Source of the DNA: an uncultured virus (IMG/VR IMGVR_UViG_3300025000_000008)
Lineage: Duplodnaviria > Heunggongvirae > Uroviricota > Caudoviricetes
Virus record (IMG/VR): IMGVR_UViG_3300025000_000008
Length of the DNA stretch: 20,000 nt
Strand: one strand, 5' to 3'
Shown: positions 11,601 through 17,638 of the stretch, in pieces
Layout: each line of letters begins with the position of its first letter
How positions within the stretch are numbered: the first letter of the stretch is position 1
Program-made: the position numbers and the translations under genes
Notes under the pieces: generated by a model
Told to the model about the DNA's origin: nothing
Databases searched by the model: none
The model's input: the letters and a program-made list of their open reading frames with translations, nothing else

Positions 11601-12473
11601 ATGACTGAAATCAAACGAATCCAACTGATTGCCGCAGCCAAGGAGCTGAATCACCTGCTCGATGCCGATCCCAAGATCCGAACCGTCGGAATCAAATCTG
11701 AGGATATGATCGGCCCCATCAAGACCGCTGCCGGACTGCTGGAAGACGGCGACAAGCTCACAACCATCACCAAGAATATCCTGGAAGGCCTCGGGATCGT
11801 CTTGCCTGAGGGGATCATTATTGACGATGACGGTGGTCCGCCGGCAGATGATCTCAGCAGCGACGAGGCTGGTGAGCCCGCAGCAGAAGCAACCGTCGAA
11901 GAATTGACCGCCCTGATCGAAGAAATGAATGTCGTCATGTCCCTGGACCCGGTCATTGAGATCCCCGAGGATGCCGATGTCGCCAAGCTGAAGGCACTCA
12001 TTAAGGAAAACTGCTACGACAAGGGGGAATGCCAGGTTTTTGACAACGACAAGTTTTCTGAGGCCTCATGGAAGCTGCTGGCCGGTCTCGACGTGAATCC
12101 AATCATCACCGAGAAGAAAAAGCCGGCCAAGGAAAAAGCTGGCAAGGAAAAGGTCCCAGCAGCAAAACCAGCCAAGGCCGGGAAAACTGAAAAGCCAGCC
12201 AAGGAAAAGGCCGCCAAGCCGGCCAAAGCCCCTGCCGAGAAGAAGGAAAAGGCCTTCAAGGGTCCTGGCGTTATCAAGAGTATCGCCACCATTATCAAGG
12301 AAAAAGGGCCGATCACCAAGGAAAACATTCTGGCTGAACTGGTTAAACTCTTCCCAGACCGTGACAAAGACGCCATGAAAAACACGATCAACGTCCAGAT
12401 TCCGAACAGGATCAATAAGGAACAGGATTTTCAGATTGAAAACACCGACAAGGGTTGGAAGGTTAAGAAATAG
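11601..12473 (+). CDS. acidic + Lys/Ala/Pro-rich histone-H1-like protein, putative DNA-binding
   Basis: AAGGAG RBS; acidic N-terminal half with an internal repeat; PAKEKA/PAKA repeats; small C-terminal globular domain. Confidence 0.6.
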   Translation: MTEIKRIQLIAAAKELNHLLDADPKIRTVGIKSEDMIGPIKTAAGLLEDGDKLTTITKNILEGLGIVLPEGIIIDDDGGPPADDLSSDEAGEPAAEATVEELTALIEEMNVVMSLDPVIEIPEDADVAKLKALIKENCYDKGECQVFDNDKFSEASWKLLAGLDVNPIITEKKKPAKEKAGKEKVPAAKPAKAGKTEKPAKEKAAKPAKAPAEKKEKAFKGPGVIKSIATIIKEKGPITKENILAELVKLFPDRDKDAMKNTINVQIPNRINKEQDFQIENTDKGWKVKK

Positions 12474-13212: not shown

Positions 13213-13410
13213 AAAAGGTTCGGCCCTGGAAGCCGCGATGAATATTGCTTCCGGCTTCGTCATTTCCTGGGCGCCCCCCCTCCAATCCTCCTGTTATTTG
13301 GTTATTCAATATCAGGAAGCAAGGCGTTTGGGATGACTTTAATATATACCGTCATCTCGTTTATCCGGTCGTATATCTGGCGACGGTTTTTCAACAAGAG
13401 GAAGATATGA
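13202..13410 (+). pseudogene. small phage membrane protein frameshifted at a C7 tract (phase-OFF candidate)
   Basis: MQSRKGSALEAAMNIASGFVISWAPP stops at 13336. With C8 at 13274-13280 it continues ILLLFGYSISGSKAFGMTLIYTVISFIRSYIWRRFFNKRKI to TGA 13408-13410, which overlaps the folE ATG. Confidence 0.7.
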
Positions 13411-14282
13411 AAAGAATTATCACGAACGAGGAAGTAGAAAATAAATGCCGCTGGCTTTTTAATAACAAGCCGTGGACTTCCGGTCTTTTTTACGGAGTTC
13501 CTCGCGGTGGTATCGCTCCGGCATATATGCTTGCCGGAATGGCTGGAGGTCGCGTCACAAATACCCCTGACGAGGCCGACTATATCATTGATGATCTAAT
13601 TGATTCCGGCAGAACGAAAGAGCATTACGAATCCCTTTATCCATATGCCGATTTTATTGCCCTTTTCGAAAAGCAAGATCCTATGGAATGGTTGGTCTTT
13701 CCTTGGGAGGTAACCGCCAAAGGGGAAGATAAATCAGCTGAGGATATTTTTACCCGTTTCCTCGAATTCGTCGGCGAAGATCCCCAGCGTGAAGGTCTGA
13801 TTGAAACCCCGGCCAGGATGGCCAAAGCTTGGAAATTCTGGACAAGCGGTTATGGTCAGAATCCAGATGCGGTTTTTAAGGTTTTCGAAGACGGCGGGGA
13901 GAATTACGATGAAATGGTAATCGTTGATCCAATTCCATTTTTTTCCCACTGCGAACATCATATGGCGGCAATTTTTGGTCAGGTTCATATTGCTTATGTT
14001 CCATCCAAAAAGATTGCCGGACTTTCAAAGTTTGCTCGCCTCGTTGATATCTTTGCTCGCAGGTTGCAGGTCCAAGAACGGATCACCGTCCAGATTGCCG
14101 ATACCATTGAAAAGAATCTTGAGCCCCTCGGAGTTGCGGTTTTCATCAAAGCGACCCACTTTTGTATAGCCAGTCGTGGGGTCCAGAAGGCCGGGACCTT
14201 CGCCAAAACATCTGCCTTGCGCGGCATCTTCAAGGAGAATCCTGCAGCGCGGGCAGAATTTTTCTCGTTATTGAAGGTCTGA
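13407..14282 (+). CDS. folE: type I phosphoribosyltransferase-like domain fused to GTP cyclohydrolase I
   Basis: N-terminal YGVPRGG, IIDDLIDSGRT, WLVFPWE (PRTase); C-terminal REGLIETPAR, SHCEHH, GLSKFAR, RRLQVQER, HFCIASRGV (FolE). ATG 13407 preceded by GAGG. Confidence 0.9.
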   Translation: MKRIITNEEVENKCRWLFNNKPWTSGLFYGVPRGGIAPAYMLAGMAGGRVTNTPDEADYIIDDLIDSGRTKEHYESLYPYADFIALFEKQDPMEWLVFPWEVTAKGEDKSAEDIFTRFLEFVGEDPQREGLIETPARMAKAWKFWTSGYGQNPDAVFKVFEDGGENYDEMVIVDPIPFFSHCEHHMAAIFGQVHIAYVPSKKIAGLSKFARLVDIFARRLQVQERITVQIADTIEKNLEPLGVAVFIKATHFCIASRGVQKAGTFAKTSALRGIFKENPAARAEFFSLLKV

Positions 14283-14294
14283 TAGTATAATACA

Positions 14295-14463
14295 ATGAAG
14301 ATATTTTTGGCCGGCAATACTCCGGGTCGGGTCGAGGAAGAAAAGTTATTTAAGAAACACGGGATAGACCCCCCCCCGGCGACTAATGGCCTTCCATTAT
14401 CTTCTTTGTGACAAATCGGTATTATTAATGTTCAACTATTTCATCAAAAAGGAGAAATCATGA
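14295..14463 (+). pseudogene. DpdA N-terminal-like module 1 (C9 tract, out of frame)
   Basis: MKIFLAGNTPG...GIDPP. C9 at 14369-14377 gives a stop at 14411; C8 gives RRLMAFHYLL...KEKS ending at TGA 14461-14463, overlapping the yhhQ ATG. Confidence 0.75.
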
Positions 14464-14978
14464 AGTATACTTGGCCCGCATTATACCTGACAAGCATCCT
14501 GCTCGGCAATTTCTTTGTCATGTGGTTCGGCATCGTTCATATTGCCGGATTGACCTTTCCGGCTGGCGTCGTTTTTGTCGGATTGACTTTCTCGTTCCGG
14601 GACTTTGTTCAGCGGCAGTGGGGTGATTATGCCTGCTGGATTTGGATGGCTATAGCCACCGGAATAACCTTTTTCCTGAATCAACAGATTGCCCTGGCTT
14701 CGGTATCGGCCTTCCTCGTTTCGGAAGCGGTTGACTGGGCCTCTTTCAAATATTTGAAGTTCTCATTCAAAAAACGAATATATATTTCAAACCTCTTTTC
14801 ATGTCCGCTGGACTCCTTGATCTTTGTGACGATCGCTTTCGGCTGGGTCTGGCCGGCGATATGGGGTCAGGCATTGATAAAGTATCTTGCCGGTCTGCTG
14901 GTATTGCCATTCATCCGGGAGGAAGAGCGGTATCCTTGCGGGTGCGAAACCGAAGATGCCGATCTCATATACAGATAA
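14460..14978 (+). CDS. yhhQ: VUT/YhhQ-family queuosine-precursor transporter (short form)
   Basis: Hydrophobic; GLTFSFRDFVQ, ALASVSAFLVSEAVD, SNLFSCPLDSLIF, GQALIK motifs; que-gene context. Confidence 0.8.
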   Translation: MKYTWPALYLTSILLGNFFVMWFGIVHIAGLTFPAGVVFVGLTFSFRDFVQRQWGDYACWIWMAIATGITFFLNQQIALASVSAFLVSEAVDWASFKYLKFSFKKRIYISNLFSCPLDSLIFVTIAFGWVWPAIWGQALIKYLAGLLVLPFIREEERYPCGCETEDADLIYR

Positions 14979-15145
14979 TGAAGATTTATCTTGCCGGGGT
15001 TCCAGGGGGGGGCAGTCCAGGGATTTGTAAGCGGGAAATTGATCTTGTCAAAGCCGATCTATTTAAACGAAGATTGCACTCTTACTATCATATCCTGATT
15101 ACAAAAAGCAAATTATCAGCAGACTTAAAACGACCATCCAAATGA
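14978..15145 (+). CDS. DpdA N-terminal-like module 2 (G8 tract, in frame)
   Basis: MKIYLAGVPGGGSPG...KRRLHSYYHIL..., 55 aa; TAATG overlap at start, ATGA at end; G8 at 15005-15012. Confidence 0.75.
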   Translation: MKIYLAGVPGGGSPGICKREIDLVKADLFKRRLHSYYHILITKSKLSADLKRPSK

Positions 15146-17134
15146 AAATCACCTTCGCTGGAACCCCAGGAACGAGAGAGAGAGAGAGAGAGGAAATGGC
15201 AAACTATAATTCAACGCCGGCTCCTCTCTTTCTGGGATATCTCACAAAACCAATTCAATATTCCTTTTGCCTTCGAACATTCCATGGAAACAAAAACTGA
15301 CATCTTCCTCGACTCAGGCGCATACTCGGCATTTACCCAAGGCGTAGAGATCGACATTAATGATTACATCGCTTTTATTAAAGAGCATAGTGATCATCTC
15401 GCCGTCTATGCAAATCTTGATGTAATAGGATCTCCTGAAGGAACCTGGCGAAATCAACGCAGGATGGAAGCCGCAGGCGTAAAACCCTTGCCATGCTTCC
15501 ATTACGGCGAAGATCCAAAGTGGTTGAAAAAATATCTTGATCGTGGCTACGACTATATCGCACTCGGGGGTATGGTCCCAATCTCAACGCCTGATCTGAA
15601 AATCTGGCTGGATGATATCTGGAAGAATTATTTGACCGATACAGATGGAATGCCGCTTGTCAAAGTTCACGGCTTCGGTCTAACCAGTAATTCATTGATG
15701 CGGCGATATCCGTGGTTTTGTATGACGGAAGAAGATCATACTGTCCTTACCAAGAAAGGATGGGCATCATTGGTCGATTTAACTATTGGTGATGAAATTT
15801 TATCATTTAATAATGGAATCGCTGAATGGCAACAAATTCAAGAAATTCCAATTTTCGAAGTTGAAAATGCCGAAATCAGGCATTTATCAAATAGAACTTT
15901 TGAAGCAATGGTTTCTGGGAATCATCGGTGGCAAGTTTCAAATATCAATAATAGAAACGAAAGATATAAGTGGAGAACCACCGATACTTTACTTGCAGGA
16001 GATTGTATCAATCGGGTCGGACAGTATGATTTTCCGATCAAATCCCCATATACTGATGCCCAAATTAAAGCATTGGCCTGGTTCTGGACTGACGGAACCA
16101 TAAAAAGAAGACCAAAATACAAAAATGATTCAATCGTCATTTATCAATCAAATAAAGCGAATCCAGAAAAATGCCAAATTATTCGGGATGTCTTAATAAC
16201 TGCCGAAGAAGCTTTTTGCGAATCTACTTCCACGGGTGATATGATTTCTTTTGAATTGTATGGGGAGTTAGCGAAATGGCTATTGAGCCAGGCCCCTGAA
16301 AAGAAGTTATCAATAGACCTTCCGTTTTTAATGACAAAAAAACAATCTGAGGATTTTATAAAATATTCAATTCTTGCAGATGGAAGCAAAACAAATCTAA
16401 AGAGGTCAGATGGATTTTCTTTGACTGTTACGAGAGAAGTTAAGAAAGAAAATTTAGAAATAATCAGAATAATATGTTTATTATTAGGGATTCCCACTTC
16501 TGTATTTGATAATAATTATAAGCCAAGTCGTGGATTATTATCCTCTTCGGTTAATTATGTCTATGTCAACCAAATTAAAAAAGAAACAATAAAATATACC
16601 GGAAGACTTTGGTGTGTCAGGGTCCCATCTGGAGCATTTTTTACCAAATGTCGAGATAAAATTTACGTTACTGGAAACTCCGTAGATAGTACAAGCTGGG
16701 TAATGACCGGCAGGATGGGGGGTGTCTATGTGCCGAAATATCGGAATGGCCAGTATGATTATTCTGAGGATTGCTGGAAGGTTCAGGTCAGCAATCGTAG
16801 CCCGAGCAAAAATGAACCTGGGAAACATCTCGAATCCTTTTCCCCTGCAGCTCGCCGCAATATCGAACAATATTTCACCCATAAGGGATTCAAGGTCGGC
16901 AGGTCAGAATTCAGGATGATGCCGGCCGATTATGAACTCAAGGAAAGTGAAAAATGGAATGGTAAGGCGGTCGGAGATAAACGAGAAGTGGAACTCATAA
17001 TTGAGCCCGGCCTTTCCAATGATTACAAACAACGGGATGAACTGAATATCATCTATTTCCTGGATCTGGAAAAGAACTGGAGGCCTTGGCCCTGGCCGTT
17101 TCAACCAAGAGTATCAAGGAGTTTTTCATTATAA
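15142..17134 (+). CDS. dpdA: TGT-fold DpdA-like 7-deazaguanine DNA transglycosylase with intein; N-terminal module 3 out of frame at (AG)9 (uninterrupted body 15284..17134)
   Basis: FLDSGAYSA, ANLDVIG, PCFHYGE, IALGGMV, VHGFG, SVDSTSW TGT-like motifs beside folE/queCDE. MKITFAG (15142) joins RRLLSFW...EHS-METKTDIFLDSG if the tract is (AG)10 or (AG)7. Confidence 0.8.
15175..15192 (+). repeat. (AG)9 dinucleotide simple-sequence repeat
   Basis: AGAGAGAGAGAGAGAGAG read directly from the sequence. Confidence 0.95.
15719..16678 (+). mobile_element. intein (320 aa) with LAGLIDADG-type homing endonuclease region
   Basis: Starts CMTEEDHTVLTKKGW; block B VSGNHRW; ALAWFWTDGT and YSILADGS endonuclease-like motifs; ends LWCVRVPSGAFF...VTGN followed by Ser; exteins rejoin as RYPWF|SVDSTSW. 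Confidence 0.9.
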
Positions 17135-17343
17135 TGTGCAAAATATATCTTGCAACTTGGCTTCTGGAAGTTTCACAAGGGGAATCCTTGACCAATGCCG
17201 GAGGCAATCAACGCCTCTTGTCATATTTCCATACCAAGGAAAAAGAATCCGAATTTCCCCACTATTGCAAAACTGGACGAAATGAAAATATACCTTGCCG
17301 GCAACGGGGCGATGCCAAAAGAACAAAGAGAAAGTCTTTATAA
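17134..17343 (+). CDS. DpdA N-terminal-like module 4 (no SSR, in frame)
   Basis: MCKIYLATWLL...NQRLLSYFH..., 69 aa; TAATG overlap with the dpdA stop. Confidence 0.7.
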   Translation: MCKIYLATWLLEVSQGESLTNAGGNQRLLSYFHTKEKESEFPHYCKTGRNENIPCRQRGDAKRTKRKSL

Positions 17344-17471
17344 CCCCCCCCCAGCCGCTACTAAAAAGGAGGCTGTTATCTTTCTTTGAGATCCAGCCAG
17401 GAAGATTTTGTTGCAGTCAATGGAATTGGTTGTATGAAAATATACTTAGCAAGCACCGCCCCAGGCCATGA
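17282..17471 (+). pseudogene. DpdA N-terminal-like module 5 (C9 tract, out of frame)
   Basis: MKIYLAGNGAMP...LYNPP. C9 at 17344-17352 gives a stop at 17389; C8 gives QPLLKRRLLSFFEI... to TGA 17469-17471. Confidence 0.75.
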
Positions 17472-17638
17472 GGGGGGGGCAGAAATAAAGGCCCTGAAAA
17501 ATAATAAATAAACGACTTTTGTCGTATCATCATATCCTTGGTAATACTTTCGGTTCAACAATCGTCTTCAATGAAATAACAGGAGCAAACCATGAGTTTA
17601 AAAAGATTGGAATTAATCACCGCACTCGAAGAAGTTAA
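17434..17638 (+). pseudogene. DpdA N-terminal-like module 6 (G8 tract; out of frame at A5)
   Basis: MKIYLASTAPGHEGG (G8 17472-17479) stops at 17511; removing one A from the A5 at 17497-17501 gives LKIINKRLLSYHHILG... to TAA 17636-17638. Confidence 0.65.

What the first reader, a model, noticed from the sequence alone, without database searches (positions are those of the whole stretch)
14295..17638. Array of six paralogous DpdA N-terminal modules with SSR switches: candidate phase-variable, modular DNA-modifying enzyme
Seen in sequence: six short paralogs share M-K-I-(Y/F/T)-(L/F)-A, a 15-25 aa spacer, (R/K/Q)-R-L-(L/M/H)-(S/A)-(Y/F), then about 22-28 aa before the next ATG. Starts are 14295, 14978, 15142, 17134, 17282 and 17434. 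The motifs are kept with differing synonymous codons, which points to selection on the peptide. Five modules carry an SSR between the motifs (C9, G8, (AG)9, C9, G8). Modules 2 and 4 are in frame; 1, 3, 5 and 6 are off by a net single base. Module 3 is the missing N-terminus of the TGT-fold body, which starts abruptly at METKTDIFLDSG. Established: DpdA enzymes exchange DNA guanine for preQ0-type bases and protect phage DNA from restriction; SSR slippage drives phase variation. Inference: the modules are alternative first beta-alpha-beta units of the barrel, supplied in trans to a body made from ATG 15284 or swapped by recombination, giving combinatorial switching of specificity or modification level. 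I know of no description of this, but could not search.
Basis: partly seen in the sequence, partly recalled or inferred. Interest (0 to 1): 0.93.

Follow-up and report, generated by a model that had tools for sequence, protein, structure and literature searches.

The report
Switchable spare parts for phage DpdA
A groundwater phage surrounds its DNA-modifying enzyme DpdA with six small genes, each encoding an alternative copy of the enzyme's first quarter, most of them carrying slippery DNA repeats that turn them on or off, which suggests a split enzyme with exchangeable, switchable parts.

Summary
Six paralogous modules of about 55 aa (MKIYLAG...RRLLSY) lie at the stated starts, and nowhere else in the six frames. 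Five carry C9, G8 or (GA)9 tracts; M2 and M4 are in frame and the other four are off by one base.

- **Fold.** The modules match strands β1-α1-β2-α2 of the DpdA (β/α)8 barrel. An AF2 model of a full-length relative aligns from residue 1 to the solved DpdA 7UI4 (Z 17.9).
- **Family.** Free-standing modules are common in metagenomes: 402 clusters, and 142 of the best 150 are 117 aa or shorter. They are strictly linked to dpdA (33 of 33 loci).
- **Selection.** Modules are under purifying selection in both halves, even where frameshifted (dN/dS 0.09; 1.9 in wrong frames).
- **Trans assembly.** A never-fused module type is predicted to close the barrel in trans (ipSAE 0.85, best control 0.01). All 51 long-form homologs keep a Met exactly where short forms start.
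- **Tract variation.** Tract lengths differ among near-identical genomes: G6/G8/G9 with no substitutions, and C7/C8/C9.

Best reading (0.6): a split DpdA with interchangeable quarter-barrel subunits under repeat-driven ON/OFF control. The effect on specificity, read-level heterogeneity and binding are untested. I found no prior description.

The parts
14295..14463 (+). Module M1 (AGNTP type). The N part is in frame 0. The C part (RRLMAFHYLL...) is one frame over, so M1 is OFF in the window. The ON-frame stop overlaps the yhhQ start (ATGA).
   Evidence: The ortholog is intact with C8 in L003 (58 aa) and broken with C9 (L004) and C7 (L005). Run X3 shows three synonymous third-position changes at 14351, 14354 and 14357.
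14369..14377 (+). C9 tract of M1. C8 would restore the frame.
   Evidence: The tract is reproduced without gaps in independent contigs of runs X1 and X3.
14460..14978 (+). YhhQ/Vut_1-like putative preQ0 or queuosine-precursor transporter, lying between M1 and M2.
   Evidence: Pfam PF02592, E 1.1e-12.
14978..15145 (+). Module M2 (GVPGGGSPG-CKRE type), intact at 55 aa. Its start overlaps the yhhQ stop (TAATG), and its stop overlaps the M3 start (ATGA).
   Evidence: The same type is fused to the DpdA body in other phages (e.g. P0086, P0064).
15005..15012 (+). G8 tract of M2 (A+G8, in frame).
   Evidence: L004 has G9 and is in frame. L003 and L005 have G8 without the A and are out of frame.
15142..15283 (+). 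Module M3 (GTPGTRERE...LLSFWDI type). It is the native N-terminus of DpdA, cut off from the body by the (GA)9 frame.
   Evidence: Intact fused orthologs exist (P0085, P0059). M3 is OFF in all 5 genomes of the clade, with (GA)9, 8, 8, 9 and a shorter tract.
15174..15191 (+). (GA)9 tract encoding RERERE in helix α1. (GA)10 or (GA)7 would fuse M3 to the body.
15284..17134 (+). DpdA body (strands β3-β8 plus the C-terminal domain), starting at a conserved internal Met. It is 616 aa with an intein-like insert and 296 aa without it.
   Evidence: phrog_887, E 6.6e-51. 81-85% identical to the L005 body. The fold of a relative matches DpdA 7UI4 at Z 17.9.
15719..16678 (+). 320-aa intein-like insert (starts Cys, ends Asn, followed by Ser) directly before the SVDS strand.
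   Evidence: The insert is absent from L002-L005 and present in L001. There is no Pfam hit.
17134..17343 (+). Module M4 (ATWLLE-SQG-SLT type), intact at 69 aa with no repeat tract. Its start overlaps the dpdA stop (TAATG).
   Evidence: This is the commonest free-standing type and was not seen fused. It is predicted to dock on the body (using the L005 pair).
17282..17471 (+). Module M5 (AGNGAMP type), OFF; the C part is one frame over.
   Evidence: M5 is OFF in the window, L001, L002 and L005, yet conserved: 14 synonymous against 7 non-synonymous differences between the window and L005.
17344..17352 (+). C9 tract of M5.
17434..17638 (+). Module M6 (ASTAPGHE type), OFF in the window. It overlaps the start of the clamp gene.
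   Evidence: It is intact (72-73 aa from its ATG) in L002-L005. P0128, an 83-aa database ORF, contains the window's own M6 read through in frame, i.e. in the ON state.
17472..17479 (+). G8 tract of M6. It is G9 in run X1 and in L001, G8 in X3, and G6 in X5, with no substitutions in those contig pieces.
17497..17501 (+). A5 run that actually breaks M6 in the window. It is A4 in all three runs laid and in L001.

Best explanation
The locus encodes a split DNA-guanine transglycosylase (DpdA).

**Body.** The catalytic body (β3-β8 plus the C-terminal domain) is made from a conserved internal Met at 15284. An intein is presumably spliced out afterwards.

**Modules.** The first quarter of the (β/α)8 barrel, β1-α1-β2-α2, is supplied by any of six paralogous module genes (inferred).
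- M3 is supplied in cis when its (GA)n tract puts it in frame with the body.
- M1, M2, M4, M5 and M6 are free-standing mini-proteins of 55-70 aa. Their β1 pairs with β8 of the body and their β2 pairs with β3 (predicted).
- The paralogs keep the two strands and differ in the segments after them. Those segments are the β/α loops 1 and 2, which lie on the DNA-binding face in solved DpdA.
- Different modules therefore probably give holoenzymes that differ in DNA contact, and so in sequence context or in level of 7-deazaguanine insertion (inferred, untested).

**Switching.** In this clade five modules carry C/G homopolymers or (GA)n inside the coding region. Slippage changes tract length, so each module gene flips between ON and OFF heritably, as in a contingency locus. 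A phage population would then hold a mix of module repertoires (inferred).

**What is shown here.**
- Homology of the modules to the DpdA N-terminus, and their place in the fold.
- Purifying selection on both halves of the modules.
- Linkage of modules to dpdA.
- Tract-length differences between near-identical genomes.

**What is predicted or inferred.** Trans assembly is predicted. A true switching rate and any functional consequence are inferred.
For: **1. Homology and fold.**
- The body starts at position 54 of the phrog_887 profile. Adding the M3 C part extends the match to position 39.
- 51 of the top 120 DpdA homologs carry a fused N-terminal module, and the module types match the window's paralogs.
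- The AF2 model of the 353-aa relative (pLDDT 85.7) has E2-6, H12-18, E24-28 and H39-52 before the FLDS strand.
- The model aligns from residue 1 to DpdA 7UI4 (Z 17.9, rmsd 4.0, 269 aligned residues) and to TGTs (Z 16-17).

**2. Real genes.**
- Nei-Gojobori comparison of window modules with their orthologs in L003, L004 or L005, in corrected frames, gives pS 0.655, pN 0.126 and dN/dS 0.09. The two wrong frames give 1.86 and 1.97.
- Modules that are OFF in both genomes (M3, M5) give 0.086.
- Start and stop overlaps (ATGA, TAATG) chain the modules to yhhQ and dpdA.

**3. Family.**
- A profile of 13 modules finds 402 representative proteins at E <= 1e-3. Of the best 150, 142 are 41-117 aa.

**4. 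Linkage.**
- 33 of 33 viral loci fetched with the M4-type module alone have a DpdA body on the same strand within 4 kb. At least 29 are distinct.

**5. Trans supply.**
- The L005 body with the L005 M4-type module (residues 1-50) gives ipSAE 0.84-0.86 in three runs, against a best control of 0.01. The runs share at least 92% of their contacts and the partner's pLDDT is at least 80.
- The tool's calibration for that mark is 116 of 157 solved pairs and 2 of 215 mismatched pairs, roughly, because my own alignments were used.
- The lowest-error contacts are body 7-11 (IFLDS) with module 26-30 (β2), and body 146-148 (SVD) with module 2-4 (β1).
- All 51 long forms keep a Met within 16 residues before FLDSG, 49 of them at -6 to -10. 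This matches the short-form starts at -6 to -11; the chance expectation is 34%. Two cultured-phage DpdAs that were read lack this Met.
- Seven of 7 short-form dpdA loci at 52% identity or more have at least 2 free modules.
- The L006-type module is fused in L006 but free-standing in L014 and in P0144.

**6. Hypermutable tracts.**
- M1 is C7, C8 (intact) or C9. M2 is G8 or G9. M3 is (GA)9, (GA)8 or shorter.
- M6 is G9+A4, G8+A4 (intact) or G6+A4 in three runs, and G8+A5 in the window, with 0 substitutions in those pieces.
- In the hidden Markov model scan of 25 loci, 29 of 38 split hits have a repeat at the break. By my curation, about 26 repeat-bearing modules are broken and 11 are intact.
- Independent contigs reproduce the window's C7, C9, G8 and C9 without gaps.

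**7. [quoted passage not shown]
Against: - No read-level data were available, only Logan contigs, so within-population tract heterogeneity and a switching rate are not shown. The (GA)9 region was masked by the read tool.
- The predicted complex is a model's confidence, not a measurement. Halves of one fold tend to pass by likeness to solved barrels.
- M3 is OFF in all 5 genomes of the clade, and M5 is OFF in all 4 that have it. This fits leaky recoding as well as it fits switching.
- In the wider sample, (AG)5-7 tracts are mostly in frame: about 11 intact against 4 broken.
- Five of the 6 modules and the body start lack a Shine-Dalgarno-like motif, while most other genes in the window have one.
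- Nothing tested here shows that modules change specificity or that the body alone is inactive.
- Cultured-phage DpdAs work as single fused proteins without free modules (3 of 3 examined).
Confidence: 0.6

Rival explanations
1. The free-standing modules are regulators rather than alternative active subunits. They would bind the body, or compete with the fused M3, to inhibit, stabilise or time DpdA activity, so the array tunes the amount of modification and not its specificity.
For: - The same docking prediction and the same linkage fit this reading equally well.
- Long-form dpdA genes, whose barrels are already complete, also have free modules nearby: L006, L017, L022, L023.
Against: - Short-form dpdA genes with no fused module are common: 62 of the top 120 homologs and 7 loci. 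They would lack two barrel strands unless a module completes them.
- The internal Met is kept in all 51 long forms, which suggests that a module-less body is made on purpose.
Confidence: 0.15
2. The frameshifts are read through by transcriptional or ribosomal slippage on the tracts (recoding). Every module would then be made at a low constant level in every phage. Tract-length differences between genomes would be drift, not a switch.
For: - OFF-state modules remain under strong purifying selection (dN/dS 0.086).
- M3 and M5 are OFF in every genome of the clade.
- From recall, not tested here: long homopolymers are known slippage sites for RNA polymerases.
Against: - The required shift differs between genomes (+1 in some, +2 in others) for the same module.
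- Intact alleles of M1, M2 and M6 exist that differ from broken ones only by tract length.
- M6 in the window is broken at an A5 run followed by a stop, not at its G8 tract.
Confidence: 0.15
3. The modules are decaying duplicates of the dpdA 5' end, and the frameshifts are homopolymer sequencing errors. On this reading nothing functional is present.
For: - Four of the 6 modules are out of frame.
- A C7 tract also breaks a small membrane ORF at 13225-13400.
Against: - dN/dS is 0.09 in both halves, against about 1.9 in wrong frames.
- 402 database families of intact mini-proteins exist.
- Independent contigs of two samples reproduce C7, C9, G8 and C9 exactly.
- All large genes in the window are intact despite A5-A8 runs.
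Confidence: 0.03
4. The modules are silent cassettes that are moved into the expression site upstream of the body by recombination, as in a shufflon or by gene conversion.
For: - The modules lie in tandem around one body.
- Contigs of run X3 join 17195 to 17282 and to 17434, which are module starts. Each joint has only 47 letters on the shorter side, and the reads were laid at 85% likeness.
Against: - The modules share only 14-26 nt at 66-83% identity, with no inverted repeats of recombination-site type.
- No recombinase is present in the window.
- Each module has its own start and stop and exists as an annotated small protein in databases.
Confidence: 0.03

Closest known systems
DpdA DNA-guanine transglycosylases (bacterial DpdA, PDB 7UI4; phage DpdA of the PHROG family phrog_887)
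   Same: - The (β/α)8 TGT fold: Z 17.9 to 7UI4.
- The FLDSG and SVDS strands.
- The gene neighbourhood QueC-QueD-QueE-FolE-DpdA-clamp-polymerase, also seen in cultured phages.
   Different: - Cultured-phage and bacterial DpdAs are single polypeptides with one N-terminal quarter-barrel: 3 of 3 examined, with no free modules.
- Here the quarter-barrel is separated, multiplied to six paralogs, and carries repeat tracts.
- No CxCxxC...H zinc motif is visible among the invariant columns of the body alignment, unlike bacterial DpdA.
Phage contingency loci: T2/T4 (bioRxiv 10.1101/2025.10.21.683753; abstract, outline and passages read) and polyG tracts in Campylobacter phage receptor-binding genes (cited there; not read)
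   Same: - Short repeats inside phage coding regions give reversible frameshifts.
- In T2 the switched gene (agt) is itself a DNA-modification gene. Its loss escapes TgvAB, a defence that recognises the glucosylated DNA.
   Different: - Those cases switch one whole enzyme on or off.
- Here the repeats sit in several alternative subunit genes of one enzyme, so the expected outcome is a choice among forms rather than presence or absence.
- That paper does not mention DpdA or deazaguanine (0 occurrences).
Phase-variable restriction-modification specificity systems (phasevarions, switchable HsdS subunits); recalled, not searched here
   Same: It works in a similar way: a constant catalytic part is combined with variable, separately encoded, switchable parts that contact DNA.
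   Different: - The proteins are unrelated.
- The variable part there is a separate DNA-recognition subunit, not two strands of the catalytic barrel itself.
- Those systems are bacterial, not viral.
Laboratory fragment complementation of TIM barrels (e.g. half-barrels of HisF, split PRAI or TIM); recalled, and no paper with DpdA was found
   Same: A (β/α)8 barrel is rebuilt from non-covalent pieces cut between β/α units.
   Different: Those are engineered pairs of fragments. Here the split is natural and conserved, a 2+6 division, with a family of interchangeable first pieces.

Membership tests
DpdA / TGT superfamily (body) | Significant match to a curated DpdA/TGT family profile | tested here: met
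   phrog_887 'queuine tRNA-ribosyltransferase', E 6.6e-51. Pfam-A gave no hit.
DpdA / TGT superfamily (body) | (β/α)8 TGT-type fold | tested here: met
   The AF2 model of the 71%-identical L006 protein gives Z 17.9 to 7UI4, 17.1 to 1IQ8 and 16.1 to 3UNT. Foldseek gives E 9e-5 to 1e-3. The model is of a relative, not of the window's intein-bearing protein.
DpdA / TGT superfamily (body) | Catalytic Asp residues on the β3 and β8 strands | tested here: inconclusive
   D10 (FLDSG), D46, H129-G130 and D148 (SVDS) are invariant in 49 sequences. This fits the list D95/D130/D256/H181/G182 in PMC10164549, but no residue-level superposition was made.
bacterial DpdA subfamily | Structural Zn site CxCxxC...H | tested here: not met
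   No invariant Cys is present in the body alignment. I therefore do not file it as bacterial-type DpdA.
DpdA / TGT superfamily (body) | Exchange of DNA guanine for a 7-deazaguanine base | not testable with these tools
   This needs an enzyme assay or LC-MS of the phage DNA.
DpdA N-terminal quarter-barrel (modules) | Homology to β1-α1-β2-α2 of full-length DpdA | tested here: met
   Module types recur as fused N-termini of 51 long forms. The hidden Markov model built from the modules hits the N-terminus of L006 DpdA at 69 bits. The model places them as the first two β/α units.
Simple-repeat contingency locus (phase variation) | Repeat tract inside the coding region whose length sets the frame | tested here: met
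Simple-repeat contingency locus (phase variation) | Tract-length differences between otherwise near-identical genomes, including ON and OFF alleles | tested here: met
   M6 is G6, G8 or G9 with 0 substitutions. M1 is C7, C8 or C9 and M2 is G8 or G9.
Simple-repeat contingency locus (phase variation) | Length heterogeneity within one population, and a raised, reversible switching rate | not testable with these tools
   Only contigs were served. One indirect hint: the window and the contigs of its possible source samples disagree at the G and A tracts of M6.
Heteromeric (split) enzyme | Separate ORFs that together make one fold, co-located and co-inherited | tested here: met
   The modules have their own starts and stops. 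Linkage is 33 of 33. All 7 short-form loci have free modules.
Heteromeric (split) enzyme | Physical association of the pieces | tested here: inconclusive
   Association is only predicted: ipSAE 0.85 against 0.01 for the best control. The pass may owe something to the model's knowledge of whole barrels.
Intein | In-frame insert absent from orthologs, starting Cys and ending Asn, followed by Ser/Thr/Cys | tested here: met
   Residues 146-465 are inserted between W/F145 and S146 of the L005 sequence. The insert starts CMTEED and ends VTGN, followed by S.
Intein | Match to Hint or homing-endonuclease profiles | tested here: not met
   No Pfam family at E <= 0.01 for the 616-aa ORF. I call it intein-like only.

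The most novel reading that the evidence does not exclude
This would be a naturally split (β/α)8-barrel DNA transglycosylase. Its first quarter-barrel is a family of interchangeable, separately encoded subunits that carry the DNA-facing loops. Repeat-driven ON/OFF switching of each subunit gene gives a phage population a combinatorial set of DpdA holoenzymes with different target motifs. In effect this is a viral 'phasevarion' for 7-deazaguanine hypermodification. It would hedge against restriction enzymes on one side and against modification-dependent defences on the other.
Probability: 0.3. Interest if true: 0.95.

Novelty: new variant of a known kind. Interest (0 to 1): 0.85.

Why it matters
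**Enzymology.** If the modules complete the barrel in trans, this is a natural enzyme built as six-eighths of a TIM barrel plus an exchangeable two-eighths. It would bear directly on how (β/α)8 barrels evolved from smaller units, and on how specificity can be changed by swapping strands together with their loops.

**Phage biology.**
- It would add a second layer to DNA hypermodification: not only which base is inserted, but also a heritable, reversible choice of where or how much.
- It would extend the very recent idea of phage contingency loci from single on/off genes to multi-allelic subunit arrays.

**Scale and testability.**
- The family is large, with 402 clusters at 50% identity.
- It carries no functional name: there are no Pfam or PHROG hits, and the few source names seen were 'hypothetical protein'.
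- It is confined, as far as sampled, to uncultivated phages.
- It can be tested directly by co-expression in E. coli.

Tried and rejected
- **Whole genome.** None is held for this window, so genome-wide repeat statistics came from relatives' contigs only.
- **Raw reads.** None were available. All 5 runs are served as contigs, and the (GA)9 region was masked by the tool. Run X5 holds only 5% of the sampled words at depth 2.6, so its G6 may be an error and says nothing about habitat.
- **Joints.** The joints 17195 to 17282 and 17195 to 17434, among others, have short sides and were laid at 85% likeness. I treat them as other phages or repeats, not as evidence of recombination.
- **Profile and sequence searches that found nothing.**
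  - Pfam on 11 modules or DpdA proteins gave nothing above threshold.
  - PHROGs gave nothing for M2 or M4.
  - A phmmer sequence search of L006 DpdA against PDB sequences gave nothing; the fold search did find matches.
- **Earlier findings of this scan.** Three look-ups returned nothing.
- **Termination-reinitiation.** I considered whether the M3 OFF frame feeds ribosomes to the body start. The OFF-frame stop lies 14 nt past ATG 15284 in the window, but about 75 nt upstream of the body start in L002-L005. I dropped the idea.
- **ON:OFF ratio as a neutral one-third.** The first 25 loci gave about 11 intact to 26 broken. The wider sample gave about 11 to 4. No simple ratio holds.
- **Counting G8 alone against shuffles.** This is weak, with 7 of 200 shuffles reaching 6 matches. 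The argument rests on where the tracts lie.
- **Classification of module types.** It uses crude patterns of my own on two differently chosen sets. Two 'fused M4-like' calls turned out to be another type.

Full report
**Context.** The window is a phage replication and nucleotide-metabolism block, entirely on the + strand. In order it carries:
- an SNF2-like helicase, a primase and ThyX;
- a DnaD-like protein and an IstB-like protein;
- a PAPS-reductase-like protein, QueD, QueE, an unassigned 290-aa ORF and QueC;
- FolE with an extra N-terminal domain, and a YhhQ/Vut_1 transporter;
- a TGT-like gene, a sliding clamp and a PHP-domain polymerase.

The TGT-like ORF (15284-17134) matches phrog_887 'queuine tRNA-ribosyltransferase' at E 6.6e-51. 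It is a phage DpdA in the usual deazaguanine gene neighbourhood. Cultured Pseudomonas and Rhizobium phages have the same order QueC-QueD-FolE-DpdA-clamp-polymerase.

**Observation.**
- Both motifs occur six times each, always paired, only on the + strand and only between 14295 and 17638.
- The tracts are C9, G8, (GA)9, C9 and G8.
- M2 (55 aa) and M4 (69 aa) are intact. In M1, M3, M5 and M6 the second motif lies one frame over.

M6 is broken at an A5 run followed by a stop, not at its G8. M3 needs one more GA unit, or two fewer. The body without its 320-aa Cys...Asn|Ser insert is 145 + 151 = 296 aa.

**What the modules are.**
- The phrog_887 profile has about 50 positions before FLDSG. The M3 C part, which is in frame with the body, extends the match to position 39.
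- Among 2424 homologs of the 353-aa DpdA of locus L006, the top 120 fall into three groups:
  - 51 long forms (342-358 aa) with a fused N-terminal module;
  - 62 short forms (298-305 aa) that start about 8 residues before FLDSG;
  - 7 that start inside a module just after an 'RERE' segment.
- The fused modules come in the same types as the window's paralogs. M2-type examples are P0086 and P0064, an M3-type example is P0085, and an M1-like example is P0087.
- An AF2 model of the L006 protein (71 sequences, pLDDT 85.7, N-terminal blocks 72-81) has β(2-6), α(12-18), β(24-28) and α(39-52) before the FLDS strand.
- VIA-align matches the model from residue 1 to solved DpdA 7UI4 (Z 17.9, rmsd 4.0, 269 residues), to archaeal TGT (Z 17.1) and to bacterial TGT (Z 16.1). 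Unrelated complete barrels also align from model residue 1. Foldseek agrees, with E 9e-5 to 1e-3.

So a module is the first quarter, β1-α1-β2-α2, of the (β/α)8 barrel, and a body alone would have six strands. [quoted passage not shown] The module paralogs conserve the two strands and vary in exactly the segments after them (alignments A1 and A3).

**They are real genes.** I compared window modules with their orthologs in the 88%-identical clade, treating N parts and C parts separately and each in its own frame.
- There are 107 synonymous and 79 non-synonymous differences, giving pS 0.655, pN 0.126 and dN/dS 0.09.
- The same stretches read in the other two frames give 1.86 and 1.97.
- For M3 and M5, which are out of frame in both genomes compared, dN/dS is 0.086.
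- Run X3 carries three changes in M1, all synonymous third positions.
- Module starts and stops are chained to neighbouring genes by ATGA and TAATG overlaps.

**They are a large family tied to dpdA.**
- A profile of 13 in-frame modules, searched against 1.84 billion representatives, finds 402 proteins at E <= 1e-3. Of the best 150, 142 are 41-117 aa.
- Several of these are two modules read through. Four are DpdAs of another subfamily with two or three in-frame tandem modules, each starting with Met. One (P0166) is an unrelated repeat protein.
- Using only the M4-type alignment as query, 33 viral loci were fetched. All 33 have a DpdA body on the same strand within 4 kb, usually directly upstream. 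Two loci repeat contigs already held, and two pairs look identical, so at least 29 are distinct.
- In the 25 loci fetched with DpdA, modules flank dpdA in nearly all. Three distant loci (51-57% identity) gave no hit.

**Evidence for supply in trans.**
- Seven of 7 short-form dpdA loci at 52% identity or more have a stop a few codons upstream of the start and at least 2 free modules nearby.
- The L006-type module is fused in L006, but it is a separate ORF in L014 and a 60-aa protein in P0144.
- All 51 long forms keep a Met within 16 residues before FLDSG, 49 of them at -6 to -10. This is the same offset as the short-form starts, and chance would give 34%. Two cultured-phage DpdAs with one fused module lack this Met, and 3 of 3 cultured loci have no free modules.
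- The M4, M6 and M0 types were seen only free-standing, by crude patterns on unequal samples.
- The one complex job used the L005 body (296 aa, 49-row alignment) and the L005 M4-type module (residues 1-50, 62 rows).
  - The score was 0.84-0.86 in three runs, with a best control of 0.01. The runs share at least 92% of contacts and the partner's pLDDT is at least 80.
  - The tool's calibration for that mark is 116 of 157 solved pairs and 2 of 215 mismatches, only roughly valid here because my own alignments were used.
  - The best-determined contacts are module β2 (26-30) with body IFLDS (7-11), and module β1 (2-4) with body SVD (146-148). This is the neighbour order of a closed barrel.
  - This supports binding but does not show it. 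Pieces of one fold can pass by likeness to solved barrels.

**Repeat tracts.** Within the clade the same module differs by tract length and by state.

| Module | Tract and state by genome |
|---|---|
| M1 | C7 (L005, broken); C8 (L003, intact, 58 aa); C9 (window and L004, broken) |
| M2 | A+G8 (window) and G9 (L004), intact; G8 (L003, L005), broken |
| M3 | (GA)9, 8, 8, 9 and a shorter tract; broken in all five |
| M5 | Broken in all four genomes that have it |
| M6 | Intact in L002-L005; broken in the window and L001 |

- Contigs of three public runs cover M6 with no substitutions but show G9+A4, G8+A4 (intact; equals P0128) and G6+A4. The window has G8+A5.
- Two of those samples may be the window's source, so the disagreement hints at mixed lengths in the reads. 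Reads themselves could not be seen.
- The same contigs reproduce C7, C9, G8 and C9 elsewhere without gaps, and all large genes are intact. General homopolymer error is therefore not the cause.
- In whole contigs of three relatives, 8 of 10 G/C runs of 8 or more, in 125 kb, lie in modules. Two further complete relatives have none.
- Across the first 25 loci, 29 of 38 split module hits have a repeat at the break: (AG)5-9, G8 or C7-9.
- By my curation about 26 repeat-bearing modules are broken and 11 are intact. Only 3 modules are split without any repeat.
- In the wider sample, (AG)5-7 tracts, which encode the conserved 'RERE', are mostly in frame, about 11 to 4. The long C/G homopolymers are a feature of the window's clade and L013.

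**Mechanism proposed.** The body is made from the internal Met. One of several quarter-barrel subunits completes it. M3 does so in cis when (GA)n is in frame. Slippage at the tracts sets which subunit genes are open in a given genome. Because the subunits differ in the DNA-facing loops, I think a change in DNA contact, and so in motif or level of modification, is the most likely consequence. That step is inference only.

Phage DpdAs are known to have motif preferences: two motifs in CAjan and a strict GA motif in iggy (abstracts in the listing). A phage DNA-modification gene, T2 agt, has been shown to act as a contingency locus against a modification-dependent defence (abstract, passages).

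**Rivals.**
- The modules could be regulators rather than active subunits (0.15).
- OFF alleles could be read through by slippage, so there is no true switch (0.15, and not exclusive with the main reading).
- Decaying duplicates plus sequencing error (0.03), contradicted.
- Recombination cassettes (0.03), with no supporting repeats or recombinase.

**Weak points.**
- No read-level data.
- No experiment.
- Five of the 6 modules and the body start lack a Shine-Dalgarno-like motif, while most other genes have one.
- M3 and M5 were never seen in frame in this clade.

**Novelty.** I searched DpdA with phage terms (39 papers, listing read), with split, TIM-barrel and complementation terms, and with phase-variation terms. 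None of the papers listed by the split/TIM-barrel and phase-variation searches contained the term DpdA.
- The 2023 DpdA-subfamily preprint has no occurrence of 'truncated' or 'frameshift', and its two occurrences of 'split' are the name of the clustering tool Graph Splitting.
- The 2025 contingency-locus preprint does not mention DpdA.
- Supplements were not opened.

On this basis, a split DpdA with a family of free-standing quarter-barrel subunits, repeat-switched in one clade, appears undescribed. The enzyme and repeat-driven switching are both known kinds, and the combination and the split architecture are new. I file it as a new variant of a known kind, with high interest.

Noticed in passing
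window 15719-16678: A 320-aa intein-like insert (starts Cys, ends Asn, followed by Ser) sits directly before the catalytic-face SVDS strand of DpdA. It contains LAGLIDADG-looking segments by eye. It is present in the identical contig L001 and absent from the 88%-identical relatives L002-L005. There is no Pfam hit.
   Followed up: partly
window 13225-13400 (C7 at 13274-13280): A small membrane-protein ORF (…ISWAPP / ILLLFGY…RSYIWRRFFN) is frameshifted at a C7 tract. In L003 and L004 the ortholog is in frame and has no such tract. Contigs of runs X1 and X3 reproduce C7. This may be a further contingency locus.
   Followed up: partly
window 13245-14282: The FolE ORF has about 165 extra N-terminal residues. 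GTP cyclohydrolase I covers only residues 167-343. A likely start, MKRIITNEEV, lies near 13404, and the extra domain is unassigned. The same fusion is present in L005 (294 aa).
   Followed up: no
P0139, P0145, P0184, P0266 (database proteins): DpdAs of another subfamily (IFIDSGGF...HGFGMT) carry two or three modules in tandem, in one reading frame, ahead of the body. Each module starts with Met. Module multiplicity is therefore older and wider than the window's clade, and it suggests alternative starts.
   Followed up: no
L002 3561-3722; L004 3364-3504; L006 5792-6007; L008 5039-5212: A seventh module type (AGGFSVMN..GRE) is absent from the window but present in relatives. In L004 it is broken by a point stop codon rather than by a repeat.
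   Followed up: partly
L026 (G002 contig end) and L027 (G003 contig start): The only G8/C8 tract outside modules in two relatives lies in another ORF, on the opposite strand of those stretches, and is in frame in both.
   Followed up: partly
window 11601-12473: A 290-aa ORF lies in the middle of the deazaguanine gene cluster, between QueE and QueC, with no Pfam or PHROG match. It is a candidate further modification enzyme.
   Followed up: no
window 17195 joined to 17282 and to 17434 (run X3): Contigs join the middle of M4 to the exact starts of M5 or M6. Each joint has only 47 letters on the shorter side, and the reads were laid at 85% likeness. They may be related phages with fewer modules, or deletions between modules.
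   Followed up: no
P0077, P0080, P0114: A few DpdA homologs carry source names from candidate-phyla-radiation or other uncultivated bacterial bins (Paceibacterota, WS6, Gudongella). This hints at the host range or at prophages. The runs that hold the window are groundwater metagenomes.
   Followed up: no
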